The notes: a model not told the origin generated them from the letters alone. Shown: positions 1 through 53,999, counted from the whole stretch's first letter. The stretch: DNA of 57,586 nt, filler included, from Dugesia japonica (GCA_001938525.1; 6 parts of 6 records of this genome joined end to end with filler, not necessarily neighbours in it), one strand, 5' to 3'. Program-made: numbers and translations.

Positions 1-222
1 ATGTACTACACATCAGACGATATTGTATGCCCTCTATGCTTAGACTATCTTGAAATACACCGAATCCTAGAATGAAGACATTTCTTTTGCTTTAACTGTA
101 TACTCAAGACCTTCCTCCTTTCCAATCTAGATCTTGTCCCTTGTCCAGTTTGCCGTTCATGTAGAATAGATTCTTTCCATAATAAGAGAGTTTCTTTTAT
201 AAAAATACCACCCTNAAAAGTA
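1..222 (+). pseudogene. C3HC4 RING-finger domain relic (TRIM-like RING), about 1 kb upstream of a retroelement PPT
   Basis: Frame 1 reads MYYTSDDIVCPLCLDYLEIHRILE*RHFFCFNCILKTFLLSNLDLVPCPVCR. Spacing is C-x2-C...(C>TGA)-x-H-x2-C-x2-C...C-x2-C. The ORF track misses it because of the stop. Confidence 0.75.
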
Positions 223-1116
223 GGACAGCAACTTAGTATGTTACTAATCCTCAAAGTTCCTTTATTTAACTGTAAAAGAATTATATTACCAAGAGAATAT
301 CCCCCAATTTGGAGATCTGGTCGGAAAATACAATAAAATAACTATCCAGAGAGATCTCATATTAATCAGCCAAATACAAATGATATGTTCACGGTCAAAG
401 TAGTAAATCACTCTAAAAAAGACAAAGATAAAATTTAGCTCCATCTTAATAATGAACTAAGACGTTTCAACAGCAGAATAAAGATACCAGACCGCTTCTA
501 ATTTGTTAGGAAATTTCACACCACTAAAACCGCCTCACAGTTTAACTTGTTTCATAACAAAGATATATCATCCCATAGACTATACTACCAAACGGGCCGT
601 TATCATAATCTTCCTGTCGATGGTGAACAATAAAAAGCAATAATTTAATCACCAATTTTTAAAGTAGCAAATGAATTCGTTGCAGAAGTTCAATCAATAA
701 CAGCAGAAATTGTAGAAGCAGGACATGCAATCCTGTACGTTGACCAAAAGATCACTATGACTAAAATTAAAATTATTACCCAAAAACTATTAGGCGATCT
801 ACAAAAATATGCACTCCTATTTAAACATTATGAATAAAGATTATTATAAAGAAAAAGAAAAACAAGAATTGTGGATAATTGTAAAAAATCAATAAGAAAC
901 GAACCAAAAACTTACAACCTCACCAGACAAAGACAACCCCTTGAGATATTTTCAAGACCAACGCCCCCATACCCTACCTTGCCAAATATCGAAGAAGAGT
1001 TTAACCCTTGTATATTCAACGAGCCTGGCTCTAGTACAATACCCTCCGGACTACATGATAAAAGATGTTCATTCTTTACCTTATTCCTTACTCAAGATGC
1101 AGGTGCATCTTCTTTC

Positions 1117-1130
1117 GAAGGGGGAACATC
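1117..1130 (+). other. Polypurine tract of an LTR retrotransposon
   Basis: GATGCAGGTGCATC hairpin, then TTCTTTC GAAGGGGGAA CATC, immediately followed by TGTTGGAG. This is a typical Gypsy PPT/3'-LTR junction. Confidence 0.6.
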
Positions 1131-2265
1131 TGTTGGAGAAAATACCAACACATAAGCATAAATGCATACACATAAAACATATAGAACACATTTTAATCAA
1201 TCAATTCAAACCAAATTGAGTTCAAATCAAATCCATCAGATAAGCAGTTCCAATCAAAATGAATTATTATTCGATAATCGACAATTGAATATCGACTTTG
1301 AACATTATACTTTTATTCGATCCTGTAAATTTTGTGAACATTATTTGACTATAATCAATTGAATTGAATTATCCTATGAACATTTTATTTTTATTTGACT
1401 ATTCGACCCTGTAAACCTTGTGAACACTATATTATTTTTATCTTGTAATTAATCTTGTAATCATTTTATTATTAATTTTTAATTAATTGTAGTTTATAGA
1501 TATCAAATTATTTCAATATTTACATTACAATTTTGAAATAATTTTACATTATTATTGCAGTTTTGAAATATTTATATTATCACTGTAATTTCGGAATATT
1601 CGAATTTTCATAATTTTATATTACTATTGTAGTTTTGAAATATTTATATTAAATGATGGTAACTGTATAATTTTATAGAAAATTTCTATTTTTAATAAAT
1701 ATTTTATTGTAAATATATATAATTTAATTAATTTATCGTCTTCATTTTCTAGTATAAATACTGTAGCTTAATTCATAAAAAACCACCTTTTTTTAGCTGT
1801 ACAACAGTTTGGATCTTCTCGAGATTCACAACTGAGCTTAATTTTCTTACAAGTATTAAACGCTCAATAAGGCATTAATCTTGATTTGTACAATTGTCGT
1901 ATTTAATCATATATTAATTTTTCAAAAAGTAAATTTATTTCTATAATATAAGGAACACTATGTAGCATATTTAAATCGATATTGTTTTATCTATTATAAA
2001 TCTATTAAGGAATATAGTGTTGGGGTCCCGCCTGAGTCAAGTGGAAAAGTTTGTGGCTGCGTAAAAACAGCCCTCAGGGAGGCCCGTTCAAGAATTTGAC
2101 CTAACGCCCCTAGGGTAGGTTTTCAGTTCATAGCGGTTGACCCTTCTCTTAATAGGAGGTACGCACCTATAAACCTTTATATTCGGGTTCATTATTTTCC
2201 CTATCAGTATTAATGAAAGAAAGAAATTACGATTTTGAGTGCATACATTTTATTTATGAAAATTA

Positions 2266-2394
2266 TTATTGCAAATCCAGTGCCCCTGGATCTAACCACT
2301 GGTTTGTTTCAGTCACCAAGAAGTTGAAGGCGGCGATGTCATCATCGTCGTCCCATTGTGTCACAGTTGGGTTGCCTATTTGTCGGGATACACA
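2266..2394 (-). CDS. Acidic peptide / terminal exon of unknown function inside the LTR-like element
   Basis: CVSRQIGNPTVTQWDDDDDIAAFNFLVTETNQWLDPGALDLQ**, followed by AATAAA. A homolog lies at 5939-6094(+). Confidence 0.55.
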   Translation of the reverse strand, partial: CVSRQIGNPTVTQWDDDDDIAAFNFLVTETNQWLDPGALDLQ

Positions 2395-2603
2395 TTAACG
2401 CGAGCAAGATTAGAGTTTAAGGTGTCTAACAAAGATATATTAATTACAAAACGGTTTCTTAAATATTTATAGTTGGATTATTTCTATTTAAAGAGCTTTT
2501 GGTAATATCTAAAGAGCCCACAACAAGAAACAAGTATCTAATAACCACCCAAACATTTATTCTAATTTATGAAAATCAAAATGTTGTCACATTTGTGTTT
2601 TTT

Positions 2604-3014
2604 TTATGCTAATGAATTGGGTTCCATATTTTCTAGAGCGCCGCCACTAGCTCGATTTCGTAAATCCCACAAGATATTACCAAGATCTATGGAGAATCTG
2701 GTGTCTCTGGGGATGTGGGCGGCAGATACTAGCAACAAGGCGGGTCCGTCCGGCCACACACTAATGGTCTGGTTACTTACTGGATCGAGGATGGTGGTCC
2801 TATGTAACACTTCTTGAGTGCGATCAGGACCAGCCCATTGATAAAAAACTTGGCTCTCTGCTGCGGCCCATTCCATTTCGTTGTCCATGTCTTCACTGGA
2901 CAAGTTGGAATAATCCGTTAAAACACCTGCATTACGGTCATGCGGGTTCTTATATCTTTTAAATATGTTACGCCCTGAGCGACGGTCCCACAGTAGTTCC
3001 AATACATGGTCCAT
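2604..3014 (-). CDS. 136-aa orphan accessory ORF in the LTR-like element
   Basis: Intact, GC-elevated ORF preceded by a splice-acceptor-like TTTATTGTAG (AG at 3026-3025). Confidence 0.55.
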   Translation of the reverse strand: MDHVLELLWDRRSGRNIFKRYKNPHDRNAGVLTDYSNLSSEDMDNEMEWAAAESQVFYQWAGPDRTQEVLHRTTILDPVSNQTISVWPDGPALLLVSAAHIPRDTRFSIDLGNILWDLRNRASGGALENMEPNSLA

Positions 3015-3173
3015 TTATCCAGTTCTACAATAAAGAGTACTTTTTAACACATGAAATAAATTACAAGAATAATTTTAATAGAATTTAACTCCTATGAGCC
3101 AATTTAAAACAACAGGCACGAAGTGCTGATAATCAAATTTAATTTCATCGAAACGGTCTTTAGTCAAGGAAGT

Positions 3174-3356
3174 TCACTCCTCATCGAGATCCACTGGAAT
3201 AGGTAGGAGAAACATCTCTGCAAAGCACGCTAAATCTGTGTCATCGGGATGTTCGATTACGCCGTGCGAGAGTATATGAGCTAGCAACTGCCTATTTCGG
3301 ATTTTACCCCTTTCAATTCGAATTAATTCCAGCATTCTTGATAAAGGATCGGCCAT
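3174..3356 (-). CDS. 60-aa orphan accessory ORF in the LTR-like element
   Basis: ORF MADPLSRML...DLDEE preceded by a strong acceptor TTCTTTTTGTTTTTTTAG (AG at 3371-3370). Confidence 0.5.
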   Translation of the reverse strand: MADPLSRMLELIRIERGKIRNRQLLAHILSHGVIEHPDDTDLACFAEMFLLPIPVDLDEE

Positions 3357-5938
3357 GAGACTGGATAATCTAAAAAAACAAAAAGAACATATTTTGCCTT
3401 TATTTCACCCCAGAATTCAAAAAAATCAGCAAGTAATAAGCTCGGAACGGTCTCTCCCGTTAAAACTAACATCTCCCGGATGGGGCCTAGAACCCGTAAT
3501 CATTGCACAATCCAAGTAAAATTGAGATCTCTAACCTACATGATGCTTGTAAGTCAAACTTGTCATTTTAATTATAGTTAAATTAGCCATAATTGTGTGA
3601 ATTACTGGTACCAGCGTTCTTTAGCTGAAAACATAATTCTCCTCTTATTTATTATTTCATTTCATAACTTCACTCTTATTTATGCGAATAATAATTATGA
3701 AAATTACAGACAACACGGTCGAAAAAGTTTACTTGGCGTTGGTCATTTCTTATGAAATATTATGCCATTAAATTTTAACCTATAATAATCATAACTTTCT
3801 TAAGTAATTTATTTCACCTAGTGAATTTATCTAGAACTTTAATTTAAAAAAAAATTTATGCTTCATGTTTTTCAGGTCACTGGATGAATATAAGCAAGAA
3901 CCACATTTAATGTATCAGTTATTTCCTGTAATTATACTACACCTTGTTCAGGATCGGAATTATTTATTTGACAGTTTAATAAAACTTTATTTCCATTTGT
4001 AGAACACCGGCCTAATTTAATGGTGATTATATTAAATAATTAACTGATTGATAGTTGAGATTTAATCACAGTGTATTTCTAAAAACCGAGGTTATTTAAA
4101 TTATGAAGGTTTGGGTTTCCCTTGGTTACGAGTCAAGGTCGCGAAACTATAATCAATTCACTCCAGTTACTGTACTGGGTGTGGCGGGATGCTGTGTGTG
4201 TGATAGACGCCAGGCAAGTTAGTGAGCAGAATGCATGGAATCAGCGTAATTGCTATGATGTCAAATATTAATTGGTTATGCACAGTAGTTATTGATGTAA
4301 TGATTCGTGCGATTAGAAATTTTGATGCATGATTCAACCAGACCATCGGCGGTATATTCGGCTAACAAACGGGACAATGATACCTTGCATGATTAAGATT
4401 ACGTTTACAGTAAAGTATTGATCTATTACCACATCTACTGCACTTGCTCCAGAATTTTTCTTTAAAAATAAATATCAACAAAATGATCAGTGATTTCTGT
4501 CATTAGAGTAACACACCTGGTAGATATAAAATAAACGCCTGCTGGGAAGGGAGTGGATTTCTGTCTTTTCAAGAAAATAACTATTAGCAAGACACACATA
4601 CTACGTTAATCTAAAACACCATGGTTTTCAAGCATTGATTTATTAATAACAGCATTACTTATTAAATTAAGTTAACGTTGATACTTTCTAAAAATAGCAC
4701 TGGCTAGTTATCTATCATATACAGCATCCTTTATTCAAATGATTAAATCAATTTAAATTAACTACTTTTAGAGATTTATTTGAGATTTGTTTTATTTATA
4801 ACAAAGAATTAGTAGTAATATTAACATAACATACATTTAATTAACAATAACATTACTAAAAATTTATTCAAATGGATTCTGCAACGGGTTATTTCTGTTG
4901 TGAGCAAATTTCTGGTATGGTCTGCTGTTTCTTTTTGACGATTAATCTTCTTGGACGATGGAACCAGTTTCTTTTTAATTCTATCAATGACTTTGATTAA
5001 ACAATTTAACAGGGTTTCGACCTTACTAATTTCCCTTGATTAACTCGGATATTCGTTCCTGATAAAATTAAGTTTCGACTGTGATGTCTTTTACCAAAGT
5101 ATTCTTGGTAATAAGAAAATTAATGGTTTGTGGTTTTAAGATTGATGGTATATTATGGTATTTTTCTAAAATCGGAGGGTTCCTTTTATAAGATTTTAAT
5201 AACACCCAAACTTTGTCATGATTCGTTGATTATTTTTAGATCCACGTTTTTCTGCTGTTATTGGTTCCAATGCCAATTTTCTACAATTTNATTCTAGTTT
5301 TGGTGCCATGATTGGCAGCTATTTTTAGAGAGGCACCTGACAATTTGTTCTTTGTTATATTTTTTTAGGTCTCTCATTGGCCGGATCTTGGAAGCCTTGC
5401 CGCACCCTTCTGAAGGTGGTAAGTTTTTCTTTCCGATAATTCTTAATGACCCTTGTTATTTTCTTCTGGAATTTTCTTGTGCCGTAGTTCTGTGATTTTC
5501 CGAAGCAAAGTTAATCGCATAAAATGAATTTCGACCTCGTTTTATTTCATTTTGAAATTAAATTAATTAATATTTTCTCTTCTATTAATTAATTGTTTTT
5601 ATTCCGATTTTCTTGGTGTTTATTATTATTTAAATAATTCTTCTTAATTCTGATACCTACATGAGTGATTTTATACCACTGAGTTTGTTGAACCGACTTC
5701 GATGGTATTTTTAATTTTCTTTACCTGTTAATTTCCGTTACAAATTTCCGAAATACAATTGCTTCCTTCTTTGAATTCCATTATACGTGAGTTTATGGGT
5801 TTTACTGTTCCTTTTTGTGGATTCCGGATCTTTTGGTCATATTAATTTTCTTCGCGGGTGTTTCACCCCAACAATAGTATTAATTCTTATAACGAAATAT
5901 ATATTGGGATTATCTTACTATTTAAATTGAATTACTAA

Positions 5939-6094
5939 ACTCACGCATTGTTGACTTATCTTGGTCAAATACCACAAGGTATCTCAACAGTAACATGAAC
6001 CACTTGGAATAGTGACGATGATTCGGCCGCGTTTGATTTTACAAACGACGAACCCGCTCAGTGGTTAGACCCGGAGGCGATAGATGTTTTGTAA
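5939..6094 (+). pseudogene. Diverged copy of the LTR-encoded acidic peptide
   Basis: THALLTYLGQIPQGISTVT*TTWNSDDDSAAFDFTNDEPAQWLDPEAIDVL*, followed by AATAAA. Confidence 0.55.
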
Positions 6095-7439
6095 AAATAA
6101 ATGTTTCTTATAAATCACCCTTCTTTGTTTTAATACTCATAAGTAGAAGGGGAAATATTAAACCCAAAATAAATGAGTGCGAGCACGTACCCCAAGTGTG
6201 CGTTGGGAGTCAACTGCTCCATTCCAAAAACCTGACTAGGGACTTAAGGTTAAATTCTTCGTGGGGTCCACTGAGGGCTGATTCCCCCCAGCCATGACTT
6301 TTATAACACCCAATCAGATTGAACCCCAAAAAAATAATTAATTAGTCAATTAAACATTCTTCAATGTTCACATCTTTAAAAATGATTTAAACATTCTTAT
6401 AGAACACAAAGGTAAATAATTTGATAAAATAAAAAATAAAATTTAAAGATTATTTAAGTATATTTTTTTGATTTTTATTGGATATTAATATCGCATAATA
6501 AATTAATTAAACTTTCGGAAATTTTAAAAGAAACACGTTTTACTATGAAATTTCACACAAAATTCTTATTTCCCTATAGATTCATTTAATACTTTTTAAA
6601 ATTTCTAATTTCATTTAAAAGAAAAATATTTATTTATTGATTAGTAAAATTGATTGTTTCACCATGAAATTTCATGATTTTTGTAAAGCAATTCTTCAAA
6701 TGATAATTTATTTTCGAAATCAGAACAATTAGCTTCACAAATTTTTATTACAAATTAAAACTATGGAAATATATTATAAACTTTTCTGAAAGAGAAACAA
6801 AAAATTTATTTAATTTAATTTCAACAATTTCTATTGGTTGAAATTTTTTAATTATTTTTTAATTTTTCCTTATAATTCTAATTGATTTTCTCTACATATA
6901 ATAATCTAGCATGCTTAAAAAATTTATGTTTCAGTTTAATTTGAAATTAATGAAACTTAAATATAAAAATTAATTAATTAAGATCAATTAAATTGAAAAC
7001 TTTGTTTTAATAAGAAAGGGTTAAACTCGAGATAATATAAAATGAAATAATGAGGAATTTGCATAATGAAAATTGATGTTTTAATGAAGTTTAACATATC
7101 AATTCTATAAAAAAAAATGATAAAATTAGATTTATGTAAACTTTATTCTGTCACGTTTTAAAGGTTTTCTCATGTGATTACGTGATACAAATGATCGATT
7201 TATTTTTATTCATTTAATTCACAGTCATAAATAAATAAATGTAAATATTTAATAAAAAATTAAGTTTTTCAAAAATTTTTACATTCTTTCTACAAATAAA
7301 AAAGTTTACTAGTTCAAGATCGAACAATCAAAATAATTTCAAATAAAAACCATTATTTAACTAGGTATTTTATCAGTAGCAAGCCGTCCCTTAATCAAAG
7401 AATGTGCATAGAAAAAAATATTTTTTATAGACAGTGATA

Positions 7440-10023: not shown

Positions 10024-10482
10024 ATTATTTTTAGAAATTAGACAGTTTAATGCAATAACAGAAAGATAAGCGCTTCCTATGCCAAATGTGGACGAAATGC
10101 TAGATTCTTTGAAAGGTACGCAATATAATAGCTCAATAGAATGGGGAAATGCATACTAATAAGTAGAACTCAGTGAAGATTATCAAGAAAAGACGGCATT
10201 TTCGACCAAACAAGGGCAATTTGGTTTCAATAGAATGCCTTTGGAATTGCAGTAGCACCAAGTACGTTCTAGGAAATGATGAATAAAGTATTCGGAAAAA
10301 TAAAAGGAGCGATGGTTTATCTAGATGATATTCTCATATTTACGGAAACAAAGGAGCAATACTATGAAATAATCAATACATTATTAACAGAAATTGAGAA
10401 GGCTGGTCTTAGAGTTAATCCGGAAAATTTTCAAAACATGCGAAAGGAGATCAAATTTTTGGGATACGCTATCAGTAAATAA
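10024..10482 (+). pseudogene. Ty3/Gypsy reverse transcriptase fragment
   Basis: PMPNVDEMLDSL, KTAFST..GQF.FNRMP and VYLDDILIF motifs, with stops and frameshifts. Confidence 0.9.
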
Positions 10483-10949: not shown

Positions 10950-12316
10950 ATTTTATATAATCACTTATTCACATTAAATATTTATAGATAAAAAATAGAG
11001 AATATAAATGCAATGATTGTGGAGAAAAATTTTTGGAAAAGTTAAATTATATAATCATTTAGACTCTGCAAATTCTCTCTGTAAAACTGTATGAACTTAT
11101 GAATGGAAATGTCGTTATTGTAACGAAAAATTTTTTATAAGTTAAAAACAATTTTCTAAACATAAAAAAATTATGTTTCATTAATAAATATAAACTTGGT
11201 GGAGTTGAATATATTGAACAGCAAATTGAAGAAATTCATAACATCTTTGTATTGTAATTTATCTTTCAATAAAATTTATATAGAGCAGTTTTTGCTAACC
11301 CTAAAATCTTACGGCCCTTATTCGAATTGTAATTTTTATTAATTCATTTTGTATAATTATTGATTTTATTAAATAAAGTTTTAAATACAACTCGTTATCT
11401 TAATTATTTATTGATATTATCATATTAAATTATTATACTAAAATCACTTTCAAGCATTATAATAGTTAATTTGGAGTCAGAAATTTCAATTGTTAAATCT
11501 TACCCACGAGATTTAACAATATTAATGAATTTTTCTAATATTTATTTAAAATATTTTAATACTATTTCCTTTTTTAATATTCATGTTCTTTGAATTCTAG
11601 TTTTCTATTGAAATTCTTAATTAAATGATTTTCTTTCTTTACAAAACTTTGTTATTAAAAGCTTATTTCTTTTTTGAAAATGTTTAAATGTCTCGATAAT
11701 TTCATAACACTTAATTTCCCTATTTTAACACTATTTCAATATCTATCAAATATTTTATTAATTCCTAACCTCCACATTGTTACTAAAAACTATTATGTAT
11801 ATATTCTATAATTAATTTAATACTTATTAATTAAAAAATATATTTTCAACTTTTTCTTTAATGTTGTAATTTATAAGAATTTAGTATACGGACGTGGTTG
11901 TAAATAGTAAATTTGGAGGCGTATTTTTTATGAGATCTATTTTTTCTTCATTTGAGAAAGATAAAATTATGGTAGTAAAATGGTAATTCATTTAAATAAT
12001 AAGATTTTCACTGCTGTTTCCTAACCGAAAAAAAATCATGTTGGTAATAAACCAAATTCTACCTAATAAGAAAAACACTTTAATTAAAAAATATTAATTT
12101 AATTAAATAAATAAGTAAAACTATATTTACGATATTATCATCTTTTTCAGTAGAATTGATTTTGATGAAAAAGTTCCCTAAAGGTTTGAATTGTTTTTTA
12201 TGTAAATTGATTTCCCAAATTAATTTTCTTTAAATACATCGAAAATGTATTATTTTTAAATGCTACCTTGACATTATTCGAAATTTTGAATAGATTTATT
12301 GATTGTCGCGCAAACG

Positions 12317-15300
12317 ATGAACGGACAAGCATTTCTTGGCTGCAAAATAAGTCTTATTTCTAGAGCTGGAATACGTTATGAAGGAATACTTTATACAATT
12401 GATGCTAATAATTCTACAGTTGCTTTGTCTAAAGGTTTAATTAAACAAAATTGTTTCTAATTTAATATTCCTTTCGTTTTTTTTATTTCAGTAAAATCAT
12501 TTGGAACAGAAGATCGTTATGCTGAAACTCCAGTTCCGCCGAGAGATGAAATCTATGAATACATCATTTTTCGTGGATCAGATATTCAAGATCTTCATGT
12601 TTGTGAAGCTCCAAAGAAACACCCGCAAATTATGGCTCAGGATCCGGCAATTCTTGAAGTAAAAAAAATAAATACTTAACTGATAATTATTTAAAATTTT
12701 ATACTTTTACACAGATAACCGGAAAACCGCCAATTGCTACTCCATATTCAAGAAGAAGAGTTCAAGTAAATAGAATTTTATACTCATTTATTATTATTAT
12801 TATTATTATTATTACAATTTTCCCACTTAATATTATTTTAATATTTCAGTTTACGCCAAGATCATATCAAGGTATTGAGCAAAGTAATTTTTTCTTAATT
12901 TTCTTAAATATTTAGTATTAAATATCCTTATTTTCTACAAATTTTTATCTATAATTCCATTCACTAATTTATACTTGTTTGCTTATTTTTCCAACTATTT
13001 CGAAATATAATTAATCAATCATTCAAAAAATCCCAATATGTTTTAAGTTTAATATTTAAACGCTTTGTGAGAAGTTCATACTATATAGGCGTACTACATA
13101 GAAAAGTCAATTGTTAAATAAATAAGAAAATTAACTATTTCACAAAGGAAATGCAATATAAGAAAATCCAAACAAAGGTTTTAGCATTTTTATTAAAAAT
13201 ATATTCGTAGACCCAAATTTTCCTTTTACTGAATATGAATTGTTGGTGTGTGTAAATGGTTTTCTGATAATATTNGGCAAATTTTCTTTGGTTTTGAGAT
13301 TTTACACCCTGATAAAAATCTTTTCTTTTAAGGTGCAACAATGGCAGCAATACTTGAATTGGATGTATTTTCTATTTCATCATGATTATGATTAAGATTT
13401 GAAGGATAAAGGAAGATTTCTTTATTTGTAGAGTTGAAATAATAGACAACATAAAACAAAAAAAACAATTTTTTGTTATATTTTAAAACTAGTATTAATA
13501 GTGGTAATTATATTTAATATGATATTTAATGCAATTTTGACTGTAAACATATGTATTTTGGAGACGACGACATAAGCAAGTTTGATCGGATTCGAAATCC
13601 TTTTGAATTTCAGTTTACTGATTTAATTAGACAGGTACAAGTAGAACTGGTTGAATTAATATATAAAAGAACAATCCGCAGGCAGTTCAACAGAAAATCG
13701 CTGTTTTCATTCTGTATTGCATATTCTCAGGAATATCCACTGTTGTCAGATAAAGCTGTCAATGTTCTGTTGCCATTTGCAACGACTTGTGCGAATCAGC
13801 CTTTTCTGTGATTAATACCATAAAGACAAAATATAGAATCCAATATTCGTGTATGTCTGTCAAACATATAACCATGTTCGGACAAATTCTGCAGCACTAA
13901 ACAGGCACATACTTCACATTGATCAAGGATTTATTTCAATTTTAATAAATTCTTAATTATTGATTTTAATATAAATTTTTTATCTTATCTAATAAATTTT
14001 TCATATTTATGAGCAGTATCCTCAGAATAATTTATTGGCACTAGTCATTTTAGTACACGTCTTCCAATTTAATTTATGAACTTTTATGGCTTCATTTNTG
14101 GGTATGGGGCTCGCTATATAACAATCACATGCCGCGGAGTTCTGCAGCTTGTAAGAGTTTGAAAAACACTGATATATGGCACTCAGTGCAGCTGAACATT
14201 TATTGCCTCTGAATTTTGCTTACTGCATTTATGTCTTATAATAATTGTCACTAAAATCATTAAATTTTGTGTATGCTCCTGGTTTTTTCATTATATTATA
14301 AAATGTCTCCTCTTTCAACCATATAATATTTCTTTTACTTGTTTTATTTGATTCACATAAGATTAGTTAACTTTCTGTATAGACCTTATTGTGGCCCATA
14401 TAAATGTAAAGATTATTTATTATTAATGATTAAATAAAATAATTCATTTAAAATAAAAGCATCTATCAAAATTTTGTTTTTTGTTTTGAGATTAATTCGA
14501 TATTTCGACTTTGTCCTCGTCAGGAAATGAGTCAAAGTCAATTCCTGACGAAGACAAAGTCGAAATATCGAATTAATCTCAAAAAAACAAAATTTTGATC
14601 GAAGCTTTAATTTTAAATGAATTCTAAAAAGGATTAATGGTTACGCCCAACAATTATTCTCGCAATAATTGCAGTTGTTAAAATGAATAAAATAACTAAA
14701 TTAAAATAAAATTTTTATCGTAGTATAATTGGATTTCGATTTTTTTTCACAGACGATGTATAATATTAATAAATAATTTTGCTTATGTATATAATTAAAA
14801 ATCTATATAAATATATAATTTTAAAATGTGTGTCGGTCATTTCAGAATACAATTTTTGTTTAATAAATGCTAACCTCAACATACTTCCTTTCTGTCAGTA
14901 GTAAATATTTCAAAATTTAAATTTTGCATTAAATTTTTTTTGAAAATAAATTAATACATCTATACTAATATATAGCATACTATTATATAAATATACTATT
15001 AGTTATACAAAACATTTGCGTGATATATTATTTGAACGTGACCCATTGGATTAGAAACAGAGCTTTGGAAGACCTCGTATTGATAATTAGGATGAGCTAC
15101 TGACAGAAGTATTCAAAGCCATTTTTAAGCTCCGCTTCAGCAACATTTCAGAAGAGAAATTTTTCCGAAGAATAAAGTTCAAAGAATTGTTTCAAATGAA
15201 CATTTCAGATTTGTCCCCAAAAGAATATGTCCTCTTATTTCAGATTATTGATGTGGTGCCGAAAACATCGTCATAATGCATGGGGGAGATATGTGGATAT

Positions 15301-19673: not shown

Positions 19674-20172
19674 TTCAGTGGGTAGTCCAAATAATATTGC
19701 TGAATATTAACAATTTTATCTTTGCTTGCTAAAATCTGAGAAATTAATTGGGAAGTGTTACGTAAAAATTATGATAATCCAAAAAAAATGTTCAGAATAG
19801 TTTTCTTTTGCTTATAGATTGTAGAGTTTGTTACTATGAATTTTGTTTTAACTAATCAATTTTTTGAATAAAACTTACAAATCAAAATTTAGCAGTTCAT
19901 TTCAACTGAAACTAAGAAATACATTTTATCTAAAAATTGTATATTTTCATTGACATCAACCAACTGCTATGTAAAATTAGGCATTATAAGTGGTCTGAAG
20001 TACGAAGAATTAAGCGAAAAAATAAACTAGGAAACTTCATTTCGATAAGATATTATTTATAATTTATTATTTAATCTATTTATTATTCAATTTAAATTAT
20101 TTTATTTGGAAATGCAAGCCTACATAAATACATAAAAATTAGTTGAATTAAAAATCCAAATATAATTTAAAT

Positions 20173-20768
20173 ATTCATTTAAAATAAAAGCTTCGATCAA
20201 AATTTGCTTTTTTTGTTTTTGATAACAATTCAGAATTGTTATCGAAATACAAAAAAGCAAATTTTGATCAAAGCTTCTATTTTAAATTATATCTAAAAAA
20301 GCAATCAATGGTTAAGTCCAGCAATTATTCTCGCAATAATTGTAATTGTAAAATATTTTAAATAAATAATTTTATTTCAATAGTTTATTTCAATTTTTAG
20401 TATTATTCTGATTTTTATTGCTAATGTGTAAAACAGAACCAAACAATTAGAAAAACCAAAATTATTTCCAAAAATAATTTTTCATTGTCAACTTAATTTT
20501 ACAATTACAATTATTGCGAGAATAATTGTTGGACAAAACCATTGATCGTTTTTCAGAATTCATTAAAAGATATGCTTCGATCAAAAATTTATTTTTTTTT
20601 TTGATAATAATTCAAATTTTTGACTTTTTATTAGTCAGGAATTGACTTTTTTTGTAATTGAAAAATTTGTAGAAAAGTCAACTTCTGACGAAGACAAAGT
20701 CGAAAATTTGAATTATTATCTAAAACAAAAAATGATCCTTGACCGAAGCTTATCTTTTAATGAATTCT
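20173..20768. repeat. Two further inverted Penelope-like pLTR hairpins; hammerhead core retained at 20681-20714
   Basis: AAAGCTTCGATCAAAATTT arms are homologous to 14441-14682. The core reads CTGACGAAGACAAAGTCGAAAATTTGAATT. Confidence 0.65.
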
Positions 20769-21026
20769 TAATTTTTAACTTTAAAGATATTACAAGACAA
20801 TTATACAAATATTTAGAACATAATTTCACTAAAAATTTACAAACTTAAGTTTTAATTTAATTAAAACATTTAGAAAAATATTAAAAATAAATAAATATTT
20901 AAAATTCTTAACGTATGATTACAATAACAATAAAATTTTTAATTAAATTAATTAAGGTTATTATGTATGAAATTATATGAAATTAAATTATGTATGAATT
21001 TATTATGTATGAAATTTACTGCTTAC

Positions 21027-22139: not shown

Positions 22140-24355
22140 TTAAAAAAGACTTTTTTGTAGGTTATAAAGATAAACTCGCCAATTTAGATATCTAGTCAGC
22201 TAATTCGATAGTGTCTGATGACAAAGACGAAAGAATTCATATAAGATTTTACAATTTATCAAATTCCAAAAGAAAAAATTATAAAGGCACAAGAATGGGT
22301 AGTTTAAAAATCCGGGAAGAAAAAAACGAGTTCATCAGAAATATTTAATCAGAAAAATTAGAGGTGTACCATGTAAACGGATTGATTGATCGAATCAAAA
22401 AGGGAGATGACATTCCTTTAAAATATAAAATAAAGGTTATGAGATTAATAATAAAATGTGCTAACTTATTTAGTCAATGCGACACGGATATTGATCATTG
22501 TAAAAAACTAAAGCATTACATTGCCACTAAGTAAAGAGCGCCGGTTGAGCTTCCACCTATACAAATACCGATAGAACTTGAGAATAAAGTTGATAATTTG
22601 TTTGCAGATTTATTGAAAAAAGATGTTCGGGAAAAGTAAAAGTCCGAGGAATTCACATTTAGTGGGTATCATTAAAAACAACGGGGACATAAGATATGTG
22701 TCCATTACCATCAGTTAAACTTAGTCAGAATCAGATCAATATATCCAATTCCAGAAATTTTTCTGCATTTTGATGCACTGGATGGAGCAAAGATATTTAG
22801 TGTTTTAATGGATATTACAATGTCGAAGTAAATAAGGCGGATAAACAAAACCAACATTCTCTACTAGAAAAAGGCAGTATAAATATTTTAAAATGCTATT
22901 TGGACTGAGTTCAGCCCCAGTAATATTCCAACGACTAATGCATATGATATTGCAAAATGAAAATTGGAAACAATGTTCTATTTATCTGGACAATGTTTTG
23001 ATATTTTGAAACTCGTATGAACAAAGCTTCAGTCGGTTGAAAGTGGTTTCAGCTAGAGTAAAAGAATTGGAAGTTAAATTGAAACCTGACAAATGTAATT
23101 TTTTGATAATGGAAGTTTCGTATCTGGGACAAAGAATTACGGCAGAACGAATAAAAACAGATCCAATAAAAATAGGAAAGTTCGAAATTGGTCAGAACCA
23201 GGGCGTTACTCAGATCTTTATTTATTTTAGCTTTTTGTAATTATTATAGAAAATTCATAAAAGATTTTGAATATGTCGTACAACCTTTAGAAACTATACT
23301 AAAACAAGGCAAACAAAAAACAAATGGGAAATACAGCAAAAAACAAATAATTTGGGATGCTGAAGGAAAAGAATCATTTAAAAAGATAAAGGAACTTCTA
23401 ATCACAGTTTCAGTAGTAGCTTATCCTTTGAAAGACACAGATGCAAGTCACAGTCATATTGGAGGAATCTTAAGCCAAGTTCAAAATTGAAATGAAAAAG
23501 GTATCGCATTTGTCTAAGAAGCTGACAAATTCAGAATTGAAATATTGTTTTACTCGTAAAGGATTATTAGCTGTCTGTTTTTGTGAAACAATTTAGACAT
23601 TATTTATTTGAGAGAAATTTCAAAAAAAGAACTGATCATTAAGCATTATTGTGGGTGAAAATTTGAAAAATCTCAAATATGTCACAATATTTTATTTGGA
23701 TCACAGAATTAGAGGAGTATCATTTTGATATTGAACACTGACCTGGCAGATTACACATTAACACAGACTATATAACACAGACAATACCCAGCCATAATGA
23801 ACCAAAAAACGAAGAAATTTGAAACTGATCGAAAAAGAAAATGATGAGTAGCCAATTATTAGATTTTTAGAAATGATTTCACGTCTCCAAGAAAAACAGA
23901 AATAATGGAATATTATCATAACAACATAAATTATCCAGGATTTATAAAGACAAAGGAATTAATTTAGAATTATTATGACTGGAAGAATATGATTAAAGAG
24001 ATAGAAAACTTTATTGATAAGCGCATTCCATGCATAAATCGAAAGAATGGAATTATTTCAAACCACATTTCTGAGAAGCATTTTATAGCTAATGAGGCAT
24101 TTGAAAAATATGATTAGATATCACTCGACCATTACCAGAAAGTATAGGATATAGATACATTTTAGTAGTAATATATCTCTTCTCAAAATATGCCATGTTA
24201 ATTTCTCTTATAGACATCAGATCGATATAAGTAATGAATAAGTTATTTAAAAGATATTTTGGAAATGCTAAAAGTTATTCACTCCGACAACGGAAGTAAT
24301 TTTAAAAACAATTTTATCAAAGAATTTTTTAAAGTTCATCATCAAGGGAATGGAT
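22140..24355 (+). pseudogene. Decayed Ty3/Gypsy pol (RT-RNaseH-integrase)
   Basis: FGLSSAP..FQRLM, IYLDNVLIF, FCNYYRKFIKDF, TDAS...IGGILSQ, an HHCC relic and IHSDNGSNF occur in Gypsy order. Confidence 0.9.
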
Positions 24356-25789: not shown

Positions 25790-28700
25790 GTTGATATACA
25801 ATAATCTGATTATTGTATTGATGTGGTAGTATGGTTCCACCGTAGTGTTTTTTTAGCTAGATATTTTACTGCCATAACTTTTTTGGACCACCAACTTTTC
25901 TGTAGGTATTTGCTGATACTTTGAATAATGTTATTTAATGTTTCATTGAAGTCAGAGATTTTTGAAGTCTCATAGATCCAGTCTTTGTCAACGTTGCTAA
26001 TTTTTGGATCTTTGGAATTAAAAGTTTTGTGTAAATGTACTGTGGATTGAATGTTGTATTAATCTAAGAGGTAGATAAAACCAAGACCCCACATTCAATA
26101 TGGCAGTATATGTAGTGATTACTATCAGTGCTACATTTAATAAATCTTCTAATTGTAAAATCGATGCCTTTGTGTATGTTTTCAGAGACTATAATTTTCC
26201 GCGAGTTTTCAAGATAGCACGTAGCAGTTTTTTAGTTTCTAAATGCAAAAATTAACTTTGATTGTATGAAGACTTTGTAAGCTGTAAGTTTTTGCCAGTA
26301 AGAAGGGCAGATTTTGAAATGTGTTGACTCATTTTGAATAATTTTGTCGTAAAGATTGTGTGGATTAATTTGAATCATTTGGCTTCTATGTATTCTTAGA
26401 TATTTATTGCGGTCTCTTCCTTGGAAAGATAGCACCAGATCATTGAACTATTGTAATCATCTTTAAAGCCAATGATGGCTTATTTCTTTGGGTGAAAGCT
26501 CATCATAGCTTAGAAGACAAAACTTTAGCAGTCGTCAATCATGTTTTTTAAGGTGGTTTCTTCTTGTGCTATGGTGGCAATATCATCTGCAAAAACGAGG
26601 CAACAGAAATTTTTATTGAGACAAATCATTAGAGGGTTTATGCCTATATTAAAGAGAACCATGGAAAGAAAGCAAATTGTCTTACTTCTCTGTTAATGTT
26701 AAAGGACCCATTTCTAGTGTTTTTAGATATGATGGTTTTAATTAGCTTTGTAGTATTAGTTGATACTCACGTGGTTGACTGTACCAGTGATGATTTCAAG
26801 TGACATTCTGCCAAAGGCATCAGTTAAGTTGAGAAAAGAGACAGAAAGTTTATTTTTGGCGTTTCTATGAGTGTCAATAATATAACTAAGGGCAAAATTA
26901 TGTTCAGAGCAGCCTTCCATTTTCCCAAGACGTTCTAATTAGGATCTAAGAAGTTTTCAGTGTTTAGCTAAGTTAAGAAATAATTAGTGAGACAACTGGT
27001 AAATATTTTGTACATGGTATTGACTAAGGCAATATGTCTCTAGTCTGAGAGTTTTTTTAAGACTTTTTTCCAGGCTTGGGTATGAGGACTGTGTTATAAG
27101 GTTTCCAAGCGTTGTGATGGGTAAAGAAAGAATTTGTTATATAAATGTAGATATTAAATAGTAAGATGATTAACAAGTTAAAAATAGCAATATTAAAACA
27201 AATCAAATTCATTTTAATATTTTTAATATCCAATTTTAAATATTCAATAATTTGAATTTCGATATATTTAAATATTATTATAATTTAAATATGTCACATT
27301 TGTCCCTTTGCTTGATCGATTTTGAGGAATTGGATTCCTTGTCATTCTTTCTGGATAACGTCTTCTGGAATCACTCTCAATTGATCGGTTAAGTTTTGTG
27401 TTTTCTTTTTACTGATATTTATGTGCTCCATGACTTTTAGGAAAGCTCATCTCTTGATATTTCTTTGATTTAATTGTAATTTCTTAAAATCAAAGTGCTT
27501 TTCAAGCAAATTGTAAGTATTCATTTATTTTCTTTATTACTTTAAATGGTCCAATAAATCTCCTTTTAAAACCATCATGTGTATTGTTTTTTATCAGCAC
27601 TTTATCATCAATTTTAATTTCATCTCTCCATCGATATTTGTCATATTTATCTGCTGTAACTTTATTATGCTCTTCTATATTTTTTCTTACATGACCATGA
27701 ATATTCATAATATTTCTTTTTAATTTCTACATATTTATCAGAATTCTTCATGATATTCGTTTCGGCTCATTTGAAGCCATGTTATATAAATGTTGATATT
27801 AAATAATAAGATTATTTACAAACTACAAATTATATTTCATGAAATAGCAATATTAAAACAAATCAAATTCATTTTAATATTTTAAATATTCAATAATTTG
27901 AATTTCAATATATTTAAATATATATAAATATCAGGATCGACTTTTTTGATATCACTGAAAAGAAAATTATTAAGACCAGTAGATGACCGTTTGCAGTTTT
28001 TAAGAATTCTCTTGATAGATTGTGGTGTGATTGTAGTAAAGTTGAAAATATTTTGGGTTCTTTTGATGGACAAGCAATCGTTCCAATCGAGAGGTTTAGG
28101 TTTGGTGGATTTTGCGCCATATTTGGATAAATTTTCTTGAGGGGTAGGAAAGCCTTCAGTGAAAGTCATTTCACTAGTTACAATGGCCATGTCTTTTTTG
28201 GGATTGAGGCTAAAAATGCTTTTGATGATTTACTTTTACTAGATTTTTTTTTGTGTTTTATTTTGTCGAAGATCGGCATTACGAGAGGGTTGAGGGATGT
28301 GTTTCTTGGCTAGAATAATCTGAGAGAATAAAGAGATCAGAACATTGACTCTTTAGTCTTCATTTGGTTTCACAGTTTTTTCAACAACTTGTACAGGGTT
28401 CAGGATTTCTGAGATTTGTAGTTCGAAATTGGAGAGATGTAAATGCTTGTATATCTTCGATTTTAAAATTGTACTTGTAGGCCTTATTTGAGAATAACTA
28501 GTGTAGTGCGTTGTAAGTGAAGTTACTTGGCTGGGATTTCACTGTTCATTTGAAGTTGAGGTAGCCAAAGTGATATCAATTGATGTTGTTTCGTTTGTTT
28601 TTCTTCGTTTTATGAATAAGAAAGGATAATTTGAATTAGAGTTCGGAATAAAGAAGCCATCAGTGTCTTTTCTTGAAGTTTTCTTTTTCTCTTTGTCTTT

Positions 28701-29507: not shown

Positions 29508-30592
29508 TATTATTCTTTTATTGATTTGCCACAAAAAATTCCCCGAATCAACCTGTCTATTTAATTTACCTCACAATTATATTGCCAAGAAAACGGCAGC
29601 GGAAACAAATCGCTAGCTTGTAAAAATTCATGTTGAACATGCATCTTCAGATATGACATGCAAGAATTAGTTTTATCGACTTAGAAATGGCGATTACAAA
29701 ACCAAAGAATAGAGCTTGGAAAACGATCAAAAGATTTTGAAAATAAAAAATTGGCAATGTTGATCAGGCCACACACAATCTGAACTGGCTGTTGCATTAA
29801 ATGTAACCCAACAACATATTTCATAAAGTCTACAAGGCATGAAAATGAATAAAAAATTTGGGAATTATGTTCCACATGTATTGACAGAAAGAGACATTGA
29901 ACGAAAACAATTTGTGATGTTCTTCTTTAGAGACAGAAAAGAAAATGTTTTTGTATGGATTCACTATCAAAATCCCAAACGCAAAGCAGCTTGTGTGAAG
30001 CCAGATGAATCCAGTATATCAACACCGAAACCAAATATCAATGGTTCAAAATTAATGTTGTGTATCTGGTGGAATCATAATGGTGTAAACTATTATTATG
30101 TGCTAAAACCATCGAAAACCATAACTGTTGAATGTTATTGATTGTAATTAATTCGTTTGAAGCCAACTCTGGTTTAAAAGAGACCAGAATTAGAGAAAAT
30201 ACATTCACGATGATTTTGCAGCATGATAACGCTAGGCCACAGGTTAATTCGGTTCTTACGAATTATTTAGGAGTAAACTGGGAAGTCTTACATCACCCGC
30301 CGTATTCACAGGATATTGATACTTCGGATTAGCCTTTGTTTCATGCAATGTAATCAGTATTTTCTGCAGAGTTGTTCAATTCCGATGAAGATATTTGAAT
30401 TTTGGTAGATAACTGGATTACTTTTAAAGAGCTACAATTCTTCTTTTGTGGAATTCATTCGTTACTTGAATGATGGGCAAAGGTTGTAGCTTCAAATGGA
30501 ATTTATTCTGAATAATGGATTTTAAATAAAAATTTTAAAGTAACTCTTTGTTTTTTACTCAAAAAAGCCGGAGTCATATTTGTAAACTTAAT
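29508..30592 (+). mobile_element. Decayed mariner (DD34D) transposon
   Basis: YVPHVLT, WIHYQNPKR, KLMLCIWW, QHDNARP and HPPYSQDI..SD motifs, with a 3' TIR ending CTTAATA. Confidence 0.9.
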
Positions 30593-32408: not shown

Positions 32409-34590
32409 GTACTCTCATATCTCAATTTAACGGACTTAAAGAGAGGAGTGTGTATCCGATAAATCCGATTGACCTTAGATTCTGAATTTTATTTTATTTA
32501 ATCAAACCGACAAAATTTTATTAATAAATCTTCAATTTAAAAACCAATTATCAATACATTATAAAAATACATGAAATATTTTGGGGATTAAAAGAAAACA
32601 AAGTTTTTAAAAACTTTGTATTAAAAATCGAGTTAAATTTTAAAATTATTAGAATTCATTTAAGTTTTAATTTTTCGATCGTATTAGTTTAGAAATTCAG
32701 AATTAAATTCTTTCGAGAAATAATTATTCAGAAAATTCTAAATATCGGTTGGTGTTTCTTTTGAAACGAGTGAAGATGAAAAAATCGCGTTCGCTTGATA
32801 CCTCAACTGATTGAGAAATATGATCGGATTTTCTAAAAAAGTCCAATGTCAATTGTTTTCCTCTTTTTGACCTTTCCTTGATTATAGAATCTCGAAAAAT
32901 TCGCATATTTTCATAGTAGGCACTAAAATCACTATTTTTACTATATTCTATAACATAAAAACTAGTATAAATAGAATTTTGAATTTTTGAAAGCTTTGGT
33001 AGTTAAATCGGCTCTTCATTATCATNNNNNNNNNNNNNNNNNNNNNNNNNNNNNNNNNNNNNNNNNNNNNNNNNNNNNNNNNNNNNNNNNNNNNNNNNNN
33101 NNNNNNNNNNNNNNNNATTCTCATCTAACAAAGTTTGAACATCCTCCAAGGTAATATTATTCTCACCTATATTATGTAACATATGAGGAAAATCAGTAAA
33201 TTCGATACCTTTTAACTTGTATTCGAGTTCAACATCAATAAGTAGTTTTTTTCCAGCTATTTGCTAGAGTAGACATTTTCAGATCTTTCCACGTTTTGTC
33301 AAAGTTTAATATAGCTGATTTAATAGTATCATTGAGCATATTTTGAAGGGATCTTAAACCTCTTGCATCATTTTCTGTATCATATCGTTTTCTATGACAA
33401 CTATAACTTCATTTAAATAATGCTTTTGATATCTTCTTTTGCAAGCACTAATAACACCTAGGTCCATTGGCTGTACTATCAAAGTGGTGTCGAAAGGTAA
33501 AAACATTGTACAGATTTTTCGTATGCTAATCAACTTATCTGCGCTTGGATGAACAGGTACATTATCTAAAATACGAAGAACTTTTCATAATTGGCATTTA
33601 TGTANNNNNNNNNNNNNNNNNNNNNNNNNNNNNNNNNNNNNNNNNNNNNNNNNNNNNNNNNNNNNNNNNNNNNNNNNNNNNNNNNNNNNNNNNNNNNNNN
33701 NNNNNNNATGAATTGGCAAGTTGTTCATACAATCTTTTAAAGCTCGAGGACGTGCTGATTTACCAACCACAACTAATTTATTTCTATGTGATTCATCGGA
33801 ATTAGCGCAACAAAGTATAGATATTCTTTCTTTAGAAATCTTTTTTTCCCTTTAGCCGTTCTTCATCTTTACTTGTCTGTGTATTTTAAGGCAAAGAGCG
33901 CAAAAAGAGCCCAGTTTCATTGGTATTATATTTCTGAAACTGCAAAAGCTTTTCTTTACTTATAATATCATGTAAACTATTTTGATAATGTTCCGCATTA
34001 GGTACATCTGTACTTCCCGCCTCACTCATACTAATAATATCACGCAATCCATGTCCGTTACGAAAACGCGATAGCCAACTATCACTTGCACCACAATCGA
34101 TATTTAAATGCTTACTAAGTTTTGGACATGTATCGCGTATAGATCCAGAGGCTATATTTGTACCACCAGCTTTTTTTGTACGTTCCATTTATACACTATT
34201 TCAAATAATTCTTTCTGGGCATCAGTTTTCATATGTTTGTGTGATTCCACAGATACTGATTTGCTTGAATATCCGTCAACACAAAATTGCAAAGAATAAT
34301 TCACAAGTTTACATTTTGATTTTAGAATATCAGAAACTGTTTGTTTTTTTACTCCATATTCTTCACATATTTGTTTAACACATGCTCCATTCTACATTTA
34401 ATTAAAGATTTCTTACTATTGTTAAATTTACTCTTTTCTTTTTTTTCTGGTCTAACTTTTTTGATGCCATGTTATATAAAGAATATTTTATTTAAATAAT
34501 CAGATTATATTTAGCAAATAATTAAATCAATTTCTATATACACACGTATTTCGGTTTAACGAACCCTTATTCAACGGATTTCGAAAACTG
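32409..34590 (-). mobile_element. Decayed pogo/Tigger (Jerky/TIGD-like) transposon
   Basis: CENP-B HTH (ASDSWLSRFRNGHGL), YNTNETGLF and FLP..TT..VQPMDLGVI motifs. Ends are approximate. Confidence 0.85.
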
Positions 34591-37464: not shown

Positions 37465-38433
37465 GAAAAATGCATAGGAAAAGCTAGAATTAAATTAATT
37501 TGGAAAAAGCATATTGAGAAAGAAATAATTATTGTTAAAGATATTTGTCCAAATTTTATTGGTGCTATCGATATAATGGAAGCGTTTAGAATGGGAATAA
37601 AAGAGATCAATATCATAGATTCAAAAGATGTTATGCAAAAATAAAAAACTTGATAATAAAAAAATGAATGCACTCAAGCTAAATGCCAGCAATAGAATAA
37701 TTGAATTACTTCATAAAGATGACCACATATTTATGAATTCAAAATTTGATGTAGTGTTAACAAATATGACAATGCATATTATAGAAACTAAAGGAGAACG
37801 CGTATTGATAAATCCAGGAATCCAATGCACTTAGAAGGCAAGATAGAAGAAGTAACACAAAATATATTATCAGCAAATGTTATAAAACCTTGTCGAAGTC
37901 CATGGAATTCTCCAGTAGTGATTGTTCCAAAAAAAGATGGTTCTCTAAGAATGTGCCTTGTTTTTAGGAAATTGAATTCGGTAACTGAAAAATATTCGTT
38001 TCCTGTTCCAGATATAAATATGTCATTTGATACATTAAATGGCTCTATTTTTTTCATCAATTGATCTAGGACAGGCATATTATCAAATTGAGTTAACTGA
38101 GAAGTCAAAATTAAAAACAGCTTTCAGCACAAAAATAGGACAATTTTGTTTCAATCGCATGCCGCTCGGATTATGCACCGCGCCTGCAACATTTCAAGAA
38201 TTAATGCATAAAATTTTAAACAAGATGTTATTTACTGGAGTGCTTAGACACAAGAAATTCATGATAAACATTTGCAAAATGTGTTGGAATTAATTGAACA
38301 ATCTGNTCTAAAAATTAATCCTGAAAAATGTATATTTAGTGTATCAAAACTCAAATTTCTTGGTCATACAATCAGTTCTAGAAGTGTTGAAACAAATGAT
38401 GACATTATTAATAAAGCTGTTATTCCAAAATGT
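37465..38433 (+). pseudogene. Gypsy protease/RT fragment
   Basis: SPWNSPVVIVPKKDGSLRMC, SIDLGQAYYQI and KTAFST..GQF.FNRMPLGL..APATFQ. The YxDD region is deleted. Confidence 0.9.
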
Positions 38434-51693: not shown

Positions 51694-52003
51694 TTTCTAA
51701 ATGTAAAATGTTGATATCATTTTCTAAATTATCAATACTATTATTTAAATCATCAATTTCATTATTTAAATGTTCGATNNNNNNNNNNNNNNNNNNNNNN
51801 NNNNNNNNNNNNNNNNNNNNNNNNNNNNNNNNNNNNNNNNNNNNNNNNNNNNNNNNNNNNNNNNNNNNNNNNNNNNNNNNNNNNNNNNNNNNNNNNNNNN
51901 NNNNNNNNNNNNNNNNNNNNNNNNNNNNNNNNNNNNNNNNNNNNNNNNNNNNNNNNNNNNNNNNNNNNNNNNNNNNNNNNNNNNNNNNNNNNNNNNNNNN
52001 NNN

Positions 52004-52492: not shown

Positions 52493-52549
52493 TTTATATA
52501 AAATAAAAAATAGCCACGAAGATTGTTGAATGTTAACATGTAACATGTT

Positions 52550-53994: not shown

Positions 53995-53999
53995 TTTAA

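What the first reader, a model, noticed from the sequence alone, without database searches (positions are those of the whole stretch)
2266..6094. Peptide under apparent purifying selection encoded inside two diverged LTR ends
Seen: 2266-2394(-) QI...TVTQWDDDDDIAAFNFLVTETNQWLDPGALDLQ* aligns with 5939-6094(+) QI...TVT*TTWNSDDDSAAFDFTNDEPAQWLDPEAIDVL*. Conserved residues differ at third codon positions (GAT/GAC, CCA/CCG, GCA/GCG, GCC/GCG, TTC/TTT). Both stops sit just upstream of AATAAA. Inference: a conserved LTR-encoded acidic/aromatic peptide or last exon, compositionally like a transactivation domain. It would be analogous to, but not shown homologous with, LTR-overlapping retroviral accessory genes. 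The ORF track does not show it.
Basis: partly seen in the sequence, partly recalled or inferred. Interest (0 to 1): 0.75.

Follow-up and report, generated by a model that had tools for sequence, protein, structure and literature searches.

The report
Hidden protein tail inside retrotransposon LTRs
Two diverged terminal repeats of a very abundant jumping-gene family, one inserted inside the other, both carry the same short acidic reading frame whose differences fall mostly on silent codon positions, so these normally non-coding repeats likely encode the tail of an undescribed accessory protein, possibly a transcription activator.

Summary
The region is a 3,856-bp solo LTR (2018-5873, minus strand, 4-bp target duplication) nested in the 3' LTR of an older element (1131-6331, plus strand). 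About 240 nt before each LTR end lies a gap-free 28-codon acidic/aromatic frame that stops just before AATAAA. The two copies share 16 of 28 residues, with 17/21/9 of 28 identical bases at codon positions 1/2/3; 0 of 20,000 column shuffles and 4 of 20,000 block shuffles match this. An independent single contig differs at 9 of 10 third positions but 1 of 10 second positions. No RNA structure explains it. Neither copy has a start codon, so this is the C-terminal end of a longer accessory ORF, broken upstream in both copies. The solo LTR holds further coding-like islands (136 and 60 codons). No homologue was found in any database searched. A few oligo-dT reads come from relatives of one copy, none from this locus. 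Splicing and activator function are not shown. It works like an LTR-resident accessory gene (MMTV sag, HIV nef by position), without homology to them. Verdict: new variant of a known kind.

The parts
1117..1126 (+). Polypurine tract of element A, 4 nt before its 3' LTR
   Evidence: GAAGGGGGAA then CATC then TGTTGGAG
1131..2017 (+). LTR A, upstream part (AT-rich, 21% GC, 72-bp-spaced repeats); interrupted by LTR B
   Evidence: Start TGTTGGAG; GC; repeat D12
2014..2017 (.). Left copy of 4-bp target-site duplication ATAG
   Evidence: contigs of DNA run X1 join 2013 to 5874 (table 5)
2018..5873 (-). Solo LTR B, 3,856 bp, termini TGTTGGGG...CCCCAACA (8-bp inverted repeat)
   Evidence: empty-site joints
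2249..2254 (-). AATAAA, 11 nt after the stop of peptide B; candidate polyadenylation signal
   Evidence: function inferred
2266..2394 (-). Peptide B: 42 open codons plus stop, acidic/aromatic core W-DDDDD-IAAFNF...QWLDP; no start codon; frame closed upstream by a stop at 2397-2395
   Evidence: many diverged gap-free contigs cover it
2607..3014 (-). 136-codon ORF island in LTR B (47% GC), ATG-initiated, no known family; modest third-position bias
   Evidence: position counts 8 of 14 (p 0.058) and 5 of 8 (p 0.088) at third positions
3025..3089 (-). 65-nt GT...AG spacer, 18% GC, like the host's short intron; splicing not observed
   Evidence: unspliced contig across it
3177..3356 (-). 60-codon ATG-initiated ORF island in LTR B, no known family
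   Evidence: covered by gap-free diverged contigs (table 8)
4120..4450 (-). GC-richer island with a Cys/His-rich broken frame
   Evidence: no Pfam match; no alignment to element A's RING
5874..5877 (.). Right copy of target-site duplication ATAG
5878..6331 (+). LTR A, downstream part, ending CCCCAAAA (one mismatch to the family terminus); LTR A totals about 1.34 kb
5969..6094 (+). Peptide A: homologous frame, stop at 5996-5998 inside it, terminal stop 6092-6094; upstream similar residues lie in another frame
6096..6101 (+). AATAAA, 1 nt after the stop of peptide A

Best explanation
The LTRs of this high-copy retrotransposon family carry a reading frame under purifying selection that is likely the C-terminal end of an element-encoded accessory protein, and its acidic/aromatic tail likely works as a protein-binding module, most probably a transcription activation domain. 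Shown: LTR location, nesting, codon-level constraint, conserved stop about 240 nt from the LTR end, absence of a start codon. Inferred: the mRNA starts upstream (inside the element, or inside the long U3-like part of LTR B), probably splices or reads through the coding islands at 3177-3356 and 2607-3014, and ends at the AATAAA next to the stop. The protein would then help the element's own transcription or counter host silencing. The two copies in the window are dead relics. My odds by step: protein-coding selection 0.9; end of an element accessory gene 0.75; activator function specifically 0.35.
For: A versus B codon pattern and shuffles. Out-of-sample test with the frame fixed beforehand: one single contig of run X10 (loose end before 2333, n=1) differs at 14 of 30 bases, namely 9 of 10 third, 4 of 10 first and 1 of 10 second positions; 6 of its 9 full codons change silently (hypergeometric p 0.0011). 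Long diverged pieces over the peptide have no gaps (20 differences over 2253-2369, 20 over 2262-2390, 28 over 2243-2388), against 35 differences and 14 gaps over the neighbouring 2388-2656 (table 8). At 2307 the listed difference is carried by 19, 10, 16 and 22 contigs in the four runs, against 0-2 contigs at rows 2427-2545 (table 3). One single contig of run X8 keeps the frame open upstream past the window's stop at 2397-2395 (table 7, n=1). The non-coding LTR end needs 15 gap openings to align A with B. Core composition: 8-9 acidic, 0 basic, 4 aromatic residues of 29. Oligo-dT run X15 has 11 reads at 6052 (9 starts; 9 with first mate on minus) and X14 has 2. Precedent by position: nef and MMTV sag in U3 (PMC12789967; PMC3621094).
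Against: No spliced joint: 0 of 4 listed joints had intron ends, and contigs of runs guessed to be RNA ran straight through 2391-2730 and 2909-3362. No read 99% or more alike to the locus (0 of 71, 0 of 1, 0 of 7), and none on peptide B in the three raw RNA runs, of which about 25%, 25% and 6% were read. Indel rows alone are not significant (0 of 12 listed in the peptide, 1.3 expected, p 0.26; 9 rows hidden). The 136-codon island's bias is only suggestive (p 0.06 and 0.09). No DNA-binding domain was found upstream (Pfam; model pLDDT 41). 9aaTAD-like pattern 0 of 2. LTR A has no GC-rich islands and no similarity to B's islands, so its upstream coding part is unidentified. The TSS is not mapped, so U3 versus R is open.
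Confidence: 0.55

Rival explanations
1. The frame is coding and selected, but the tail binds a cytoplasmic or nuclear host adaptor instead of activating transcription (for example a tryptophan-acidic kinesin-light-chain-type motif or an autophagy LIR; these motif names are recalled, not from a call).
For: Two spaced Trp residues in acidic context; a LIR-like pattern in copy B. Accessory TE proteins are predicted to have many host contacts (PMC13547354 passages).
Against: LIR-like pattern in 1 of 2 copies only; the residue after the first Trp is not acidic in copy A.
Confidence: 0.15
2. The LTR carries captured pieces of a host gene; the selection signal was inherited from the host gene or from repeated captures, not from a function for the element.
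For: LTR B has GC-rich islands separated by AT-rich GT...AG spacers like the host's 56-nt LSM14 intron.
Against: The frame sits at the same distance from the LTR end in two LTRs of very different length (248 and 237 nt). Many diverged LTR variants keep it gap-free with silent changes. No cellular homologue in 1.84 billion representatives or in word searches.
Confidence: 0.12
3. It is a short regulatory uORF or leader peptide read from the 5' LTR transcript.
For: It stops inside the LTR, ahead of where a primer-binding site and gag would follow.
Against: No ATG in frame in either copy; AATAAA follows at once; the frame runs on upstream in another copy (X8 single contig).
Confidence: 0.08
4. Conservation reflects a DNA or RNA cis-element (promoter, poly(A) or packaging signal) and the peptide is incidental.
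For: It adjoins the most repeated part of the LTR (bin 2054-2207), and the non-coding end is itself alignable between A and B (160 of 224 ungapped columns).
Against: DNA identity in the core is only 47 of 84 with third positions saturated; folding no better than shuffles; no Rfam family; triplet periodicity in an independent contig.
Confidence: 0.07
5. 2018-5873 is not a solo LTR but a short-TIR DNA element or a non-autonomous derivative.
For: No partner LTR or gag-pol for B in the window; 3.9 kb is long for an LTR.
Against: Its end is homologous to a repeat that follows a polypurine tract in element A and shares its TGTTGG...CCAACA termini. LTRs of 1.9-6.5 kb are on record for Ogre (PMC6431247).
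Confidence: 0.05

Closest known systems
MMTV sag and HIV-1 nef (coding sequence in U3 of the 3' LTR)
   Same: Protein-coding sequence inside an LTR, so every LTR carries a copy (PMC12789967 and PMC3621094 passages).
   Different: No sequence similarity found (Pfam, PDB, HMMER). The host element is an invertebrate-type LTR retroelement with no env seen. Only a C-terminal piece is defined, and U3 position and splicing are not mapped.
Foamy virus Tas/Bet from an internal promoter
   Same: Model for a 3' accessory activator made from a subgenomic RNA (PMC12789967 passages).
   Different: No homology; no internal promoter, DNA-binding domain or activation shown here.
Additional ORFs of plant LTR retrotransposons (Ogre, Retand, Grande, RIRE2)
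   Same: Family-wide conserved extra ORFs of unknown origin and function; Ogre also has multi-kb LTRs (PMC7264820 part 1 of 3; PMC6431247).
   Different: Those are described in the internal region, between pol and the 3' LTR or before gag; this one is inside the LTR and in sense orientation.
Burro/GYPSM1 giant gypsy-like elements of planarians
   Same: Thousands of copies, long LTRs, extra domains including a RING-type one (PMC6431247); element A has a weak RING match upstream of its PPT.
   Different: Host species and element superfamily are not established here; no BIR, BCL2 or MATH domain seen; no LTR-resident ORF in the passages read.

Membership tests
LTR of an LTR retrotransposon | TG...CA termini with short inverted repeat | tested here: met
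   B: TGTTGGGG/CCCCAACA; A: one mismatch at each end
LTR of an LTR retrotransposon | 4-6 bp target-site duplication | tested here: met
   ATAG on both sides of B; empty-site contigs join 2013 to 5874
LTR of an LTR retrotransposon | Polypurine tract next to the 3' LTR | tested here: met
   1117-1126 before LTR A
LTR of an LTR retrotransposon | Paired LTRs around gag-pol; RT/integrase order giving the superfamily (Ty3/gypsy, BEL/Pao, copia) | not testable with these tools
   The window starts inside element A's 3' interior and no genome is held; the ORFs scanned in 1-1216 show only a weak RING
U3-encoded retroviral accessory gene (sag/nef type) | Coding frame inside the LTR under selection | tested here: met
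U3-encoded retroviral accessory gene (sag/nef type) | Sequence homology to Sag, Nef, Tas or Bet | tested here: not met
   No Pfam family for the peptide or the islands; HMMER hits unrelated
U3-encoded retroviral accessory gene (sag/nef type) | Spliced or subgenomic mRNA | tested here: inconclusive
   0 of 4 joints intron-like in contig runs whose RNA nature is a guess; too few raw reads
U3-encoded retroviral accessory gene (sag/nef type) | Lies upstream of the transcription start (U3) | tested here: inconclusive
   No start or end pile-ups (table 6)
Acidic transcription activation domain | Acidic residues interspersed with W/F/L, no basic residues | tested here: met
   8-9 D/E, 0 K/R, 4 aromatic of 29
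Acidic transcription activation domain | 9aaTAD-like pattern (recalled pattern) | tested here: not met
   0 of 2 copies
Acidic transcription activation domain | Activation when tethered to DNA | not testable with these tools
   Needs a reporter assay
Burro/GYPSM1 | Giant polyprotein with BIR, BCL2-like and MATH domains in a planarian host | not testable with these tools
   Interior not in the window; the primary paper was not held
SET-domain protein (136-codon island) | SET profile or fold match | tested here: not met
   Atlas lead 0.90 with 129 of 256 shared features and low recognition; Pfam none at E 0.1; PDB none; model pLDDT 41

The most novel reading that the evidence does not exclude
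A high-copy invertebrate LTR retrotransposon family encodes its own multi-exon transactivator inside its LTR. In the 3.9-kb subfamily the whole gene, with introns and poly(A) site, lies within the repeat, so solo LTRs would be self-contained trans-acting genes scattered through the host genome, a complex-retrovirus style of regulation reached independently.
Probability: 0.2. Interest if true: 0.85.

Novelty: new variant of a known kind. Interest (0 to 1): 0.58.

Why it matters
LTRs are annotated as non-coding and solo LTRs as inert. A selected coding frame in an LTR family with very many copies means an unannotated protein family with no database homologue, and gene copies left behind by every solo-LTR event. 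If it activates transcription or counters silencing, it gives a testable answer to how such a family reached high copy number, and parallels the accessory genes of complex retroviruses.

Tried and rejected
No whole genome is held, so genome-wide tblastn and dN/dS were not possible.

Homologue searches were blank. Word searches: 0 of 387, 0 of 16 and 0 of 31 candidates scored. HMMER over 1.84 billion proteins gave 2 hits, both 2,900-residue repeat proteins matched in 5-14 stretches, rejected. Pfam gave no family for the peptide or islands; PDB best E 0.45; metagenome motif scan 0; 271 viral and 524 metagenome pattern hits, none confirmed. The Atlas gave a weak SET lead (rejected) and a blank.

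The single-sequence model of the 136-codon ORF was too poor to search (pLDDT 41); no fold search was run. RNA structure was rejected. A suspected RING remnant at 4365-4499 did not align with element A's RING (score 25 against shuffle mean 25.6).

No RNA holder was listed in the run index, which is no evidence either way. Missing raw-read cover on peptide B is limited by partial reading of the runs. Contig depth was not used as copy number or expression. Rows where several contigs all differ from the window (7 second, 3 first, 1 third position) were read as changes private to this dead copy and not counted as support. Majority loose-end lines are not used as evidence.

Literature phrase searches for an ORF inside a retrotransposon LTR returned 0 papers; some searches gave listings only, apart from the papers cited. 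The library lacks most subscription papers and Repbase, and no supplements were read, so absence from print is not established. No complex prediction was run.

Full report
Setting. The window is AT-rich (16-41% GC per kb), full of transposon fragments, and holds a host LSM14 gene with a 56-nt intron whose nearest solved structure is human LSM14A. This suggests an AT-rich animal; the species is not established. No whole genome is held.

Anatomy. The two 'LTR ends' are nested. Element B spans 2018-5873 on the minus strand, has 8-bp inverted termini TGTTGGGG/CCCCAACA and is flanked by ATAG on both sides. Contigs of DNA run X1 join 2013 to 5874 or 5895, so the empty site exists in other copies (tables 5 and 5c). 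It is a 3,856-bp solo LTR. It interrupts LTR A, which begins at 1131 four bases after a polypurine tract (1117-1126) and ends near 6331, about 1.34 kb in all. Upstream of the tract lies A's interior with a broken RING frame (E 0.0033). The last 450-500 nt of A and B are homologous; their upstream parts show no similarity. The superfamily cannot be assigned because no pol of A or B is in view.

The observation. Both peptides are as described and end 248 and 237 nt before the LTR ends. In the gap-free 28-codon core 16 residues are identical, 8 of them with different synonymous codons. Bases are identical at 17, 21 and 9 of 28 first, second and third positions; pS is saturated and pN is about 0.30. 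Shuffling aligned columns gave 16 identities in the best of six frames 0 of 20,000 times, block shuffling 4 of 20,000; the periodicity statistic was reached 96 and 46 times. The non-coding LTR end aligns at 160 of 224 ungapped columns but needs 15 gap openings, so the case rests on the codon pattern, not on DNA identity.

Independent copies. Laying four contig runs on 2230-3400 at 80% likeness (114, 51, 90 and 142 contigs laid) showed diverged copies concentrated on 2270-2389, 2830-3029 and 3190-3389. Listed long pieces over the peptide carry 20-28 differences and no gap; the neighbouring spacer piece carries 35 differences and 14 gaps. One single-contig loose end (X10, before 2333) differs at 9 of 10 third, 4 of 10 first and 1 of 10 second positions, p 0.0011 with the frame fixed in advance. 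One single contig of X8, a run labelled as a second organism, keeps the frame open upstream of the window's stop at 2397-2395. Against over-reading: 0 of 12 listed indel rows fall in the peptide, but 1.3 were expected (p 0.26) and 9 rows are hidden; only 40 of 240 substitution rows and 31 of 400 pieces were shown.

No RNA explanation. The peptide regions fold no better than shuffles (z 0.12, -0.88), nor do the LTR ends (0.34, -0.69). Rfam gave one chance-level match at E 0.15.

What it is part of. Neither copy has an in-frame ATG. Copy A has a stop at 5996-5998, and in both copies the similar upstream residues lie in another frame, so both are broken relics of a longer ORF. LTR B contains GC-rich islands (41-49% GC) separated by 18-27% GC spacers: the peptide, a 136-codon ORF (2607-3014), a 60-codon ORF (3177-3356) and a Cys-rich broken island (4120-4450). 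The 136-codon frame shows suggestive third-position bias (8 of 14, 5 of 8; p 0.058, 0.088). The spacer 3025-3089 reads GT...AG and resembles the host intron, and a donor-like site at 2680 and an acceptor-like site at 2426 have the same phase (one chance in three). Splicing was not seen: none of 4 joints was intron-like and contigs crossed the spacers unspliced, in runs whose RNA nature is only guessed.

Expression. In raw oligo-dT run X15, 11 reads (9 starts) cover 6052 and 12-14 cover 6242-6270, mostly or all with the first mate on the minus strand, which in most stranded libraries means sense RNA; strandedness is not on record. X14 had 2 reads at 6052 and X18 one read in all. None was 99% alike, so they come from relatives, and none covered peptide B. 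Expression of the family is therefore low-level and indirect.

Homologues. None were found by word search, HMMER, Pfam, PDB, Atlas, or viral and metagenome scans. The SET lead for the 136-codon ORF failed its checks.

Mechanism. Most likely the frame is the C-terminal tail of an element-encoded accessory protein, made from an RNA that starts upstream and is polyadenylated at the AATAAA beside the stop. The tail has 8-9 acidic, no basic and 4 aromatic residues in 29, with both Trp, both Phe and the WLDP block conserved. That is the make-up of acidic activation domains and other short binding motifs (established knowledge, recalled). I commit to an activator-type interaction tail at about 0.35 for that function, 0.75 for 'end of an element accessory gene' and 0.9 for 'selected as protein'. 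Rivals are an adaptor-binding tail, captured host exons, a uORF, a cis-element and a non-LTR identity for B.

Comparison and novelty. Coding sequence in U3 is known for HIV-1 nef and MMTV sag (PMC12789967 and PMC3621094, passages), and foamy viruses make Tas from an internal promoter. Extra ORFs of plant retrotransposons are described in the internal region (PMC7264820, part 1 of 3), and GyDB calls LTRs normally non-coding (PMC2238898, passages). Planarian Burro elements carry accessory domains in their polyprotein (PMC6431247, passages); the primary paper was not held. Three phrase searches found no paper on an ORF inside a retrotransposon LTR, which is weak evidence of absence. Earlier scan notes from other genomes report LTR-resident genes, two with acidic proteins; they are unchecked leads, share no detected sequence with this one, and suggest the architecture recurs. 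So this works like an LTR-resident accessory gene but is not a member of any named family.

Verdict. Observation confirmed, interpretation partly supported, new variant of a known kind, interest 0.58.

Noticed in passing
window 1-330 (+): Broken RING-finger frame in the 3' interior of element A (zf-RING_2 E 0.0033 on 76-330), followed by further open frames up to the polypurine tract; possibly another accessory gene.
   Followed up: partly
window 5936-5989 (+): A 54-nt piece matched by most RNA reads of run X15, with AT-rich unlike flanks on both sides and the opposite mate direction to the peptide reads. Probably a separate repeat; unexplained.
   Followed up: no
window 5288-5441 and 2054-2207: The two bins of LTR B with by far the highest summed contig depth in DNA run X1 (about 66,000 and 65,000 against 100-300 in the middle); likely family-wide cis-elements.
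   Followed up: no
window 3014-3024 (-): A stop directly followed by ATG at the start of the 136-codon island, just after an acceptor-like site; a second frame (3043-2921) is also open over the same bases.
   Followed up: partly
window 12290-12760 (+): Host LSM14/Scd6 gene with a 56-nt AT-rich intron; closest solved structure is human LSM14A.
   Followed up: partly
window 48700-57100 (-): Cluster of long ORFs that looks like a Polinton/Maverick element (B-type polymerase-like motifs by eye, recalled; adenovirus-type protease E 0.067).
   Followed up: no
window 10273-10479, 23176-23487, 26528-26692, 29827-30138, 33357-34391, 38039-38290, 41193-41796: Fragments of reverse transcriptases, RNase H and mariner, pogo and Tc1 transposases.
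   Followed up: no
window 14448-14682, 20164-20771, 40267-40366: Copies of a MITE-like element with long inverted repeats.
   Followed up: no
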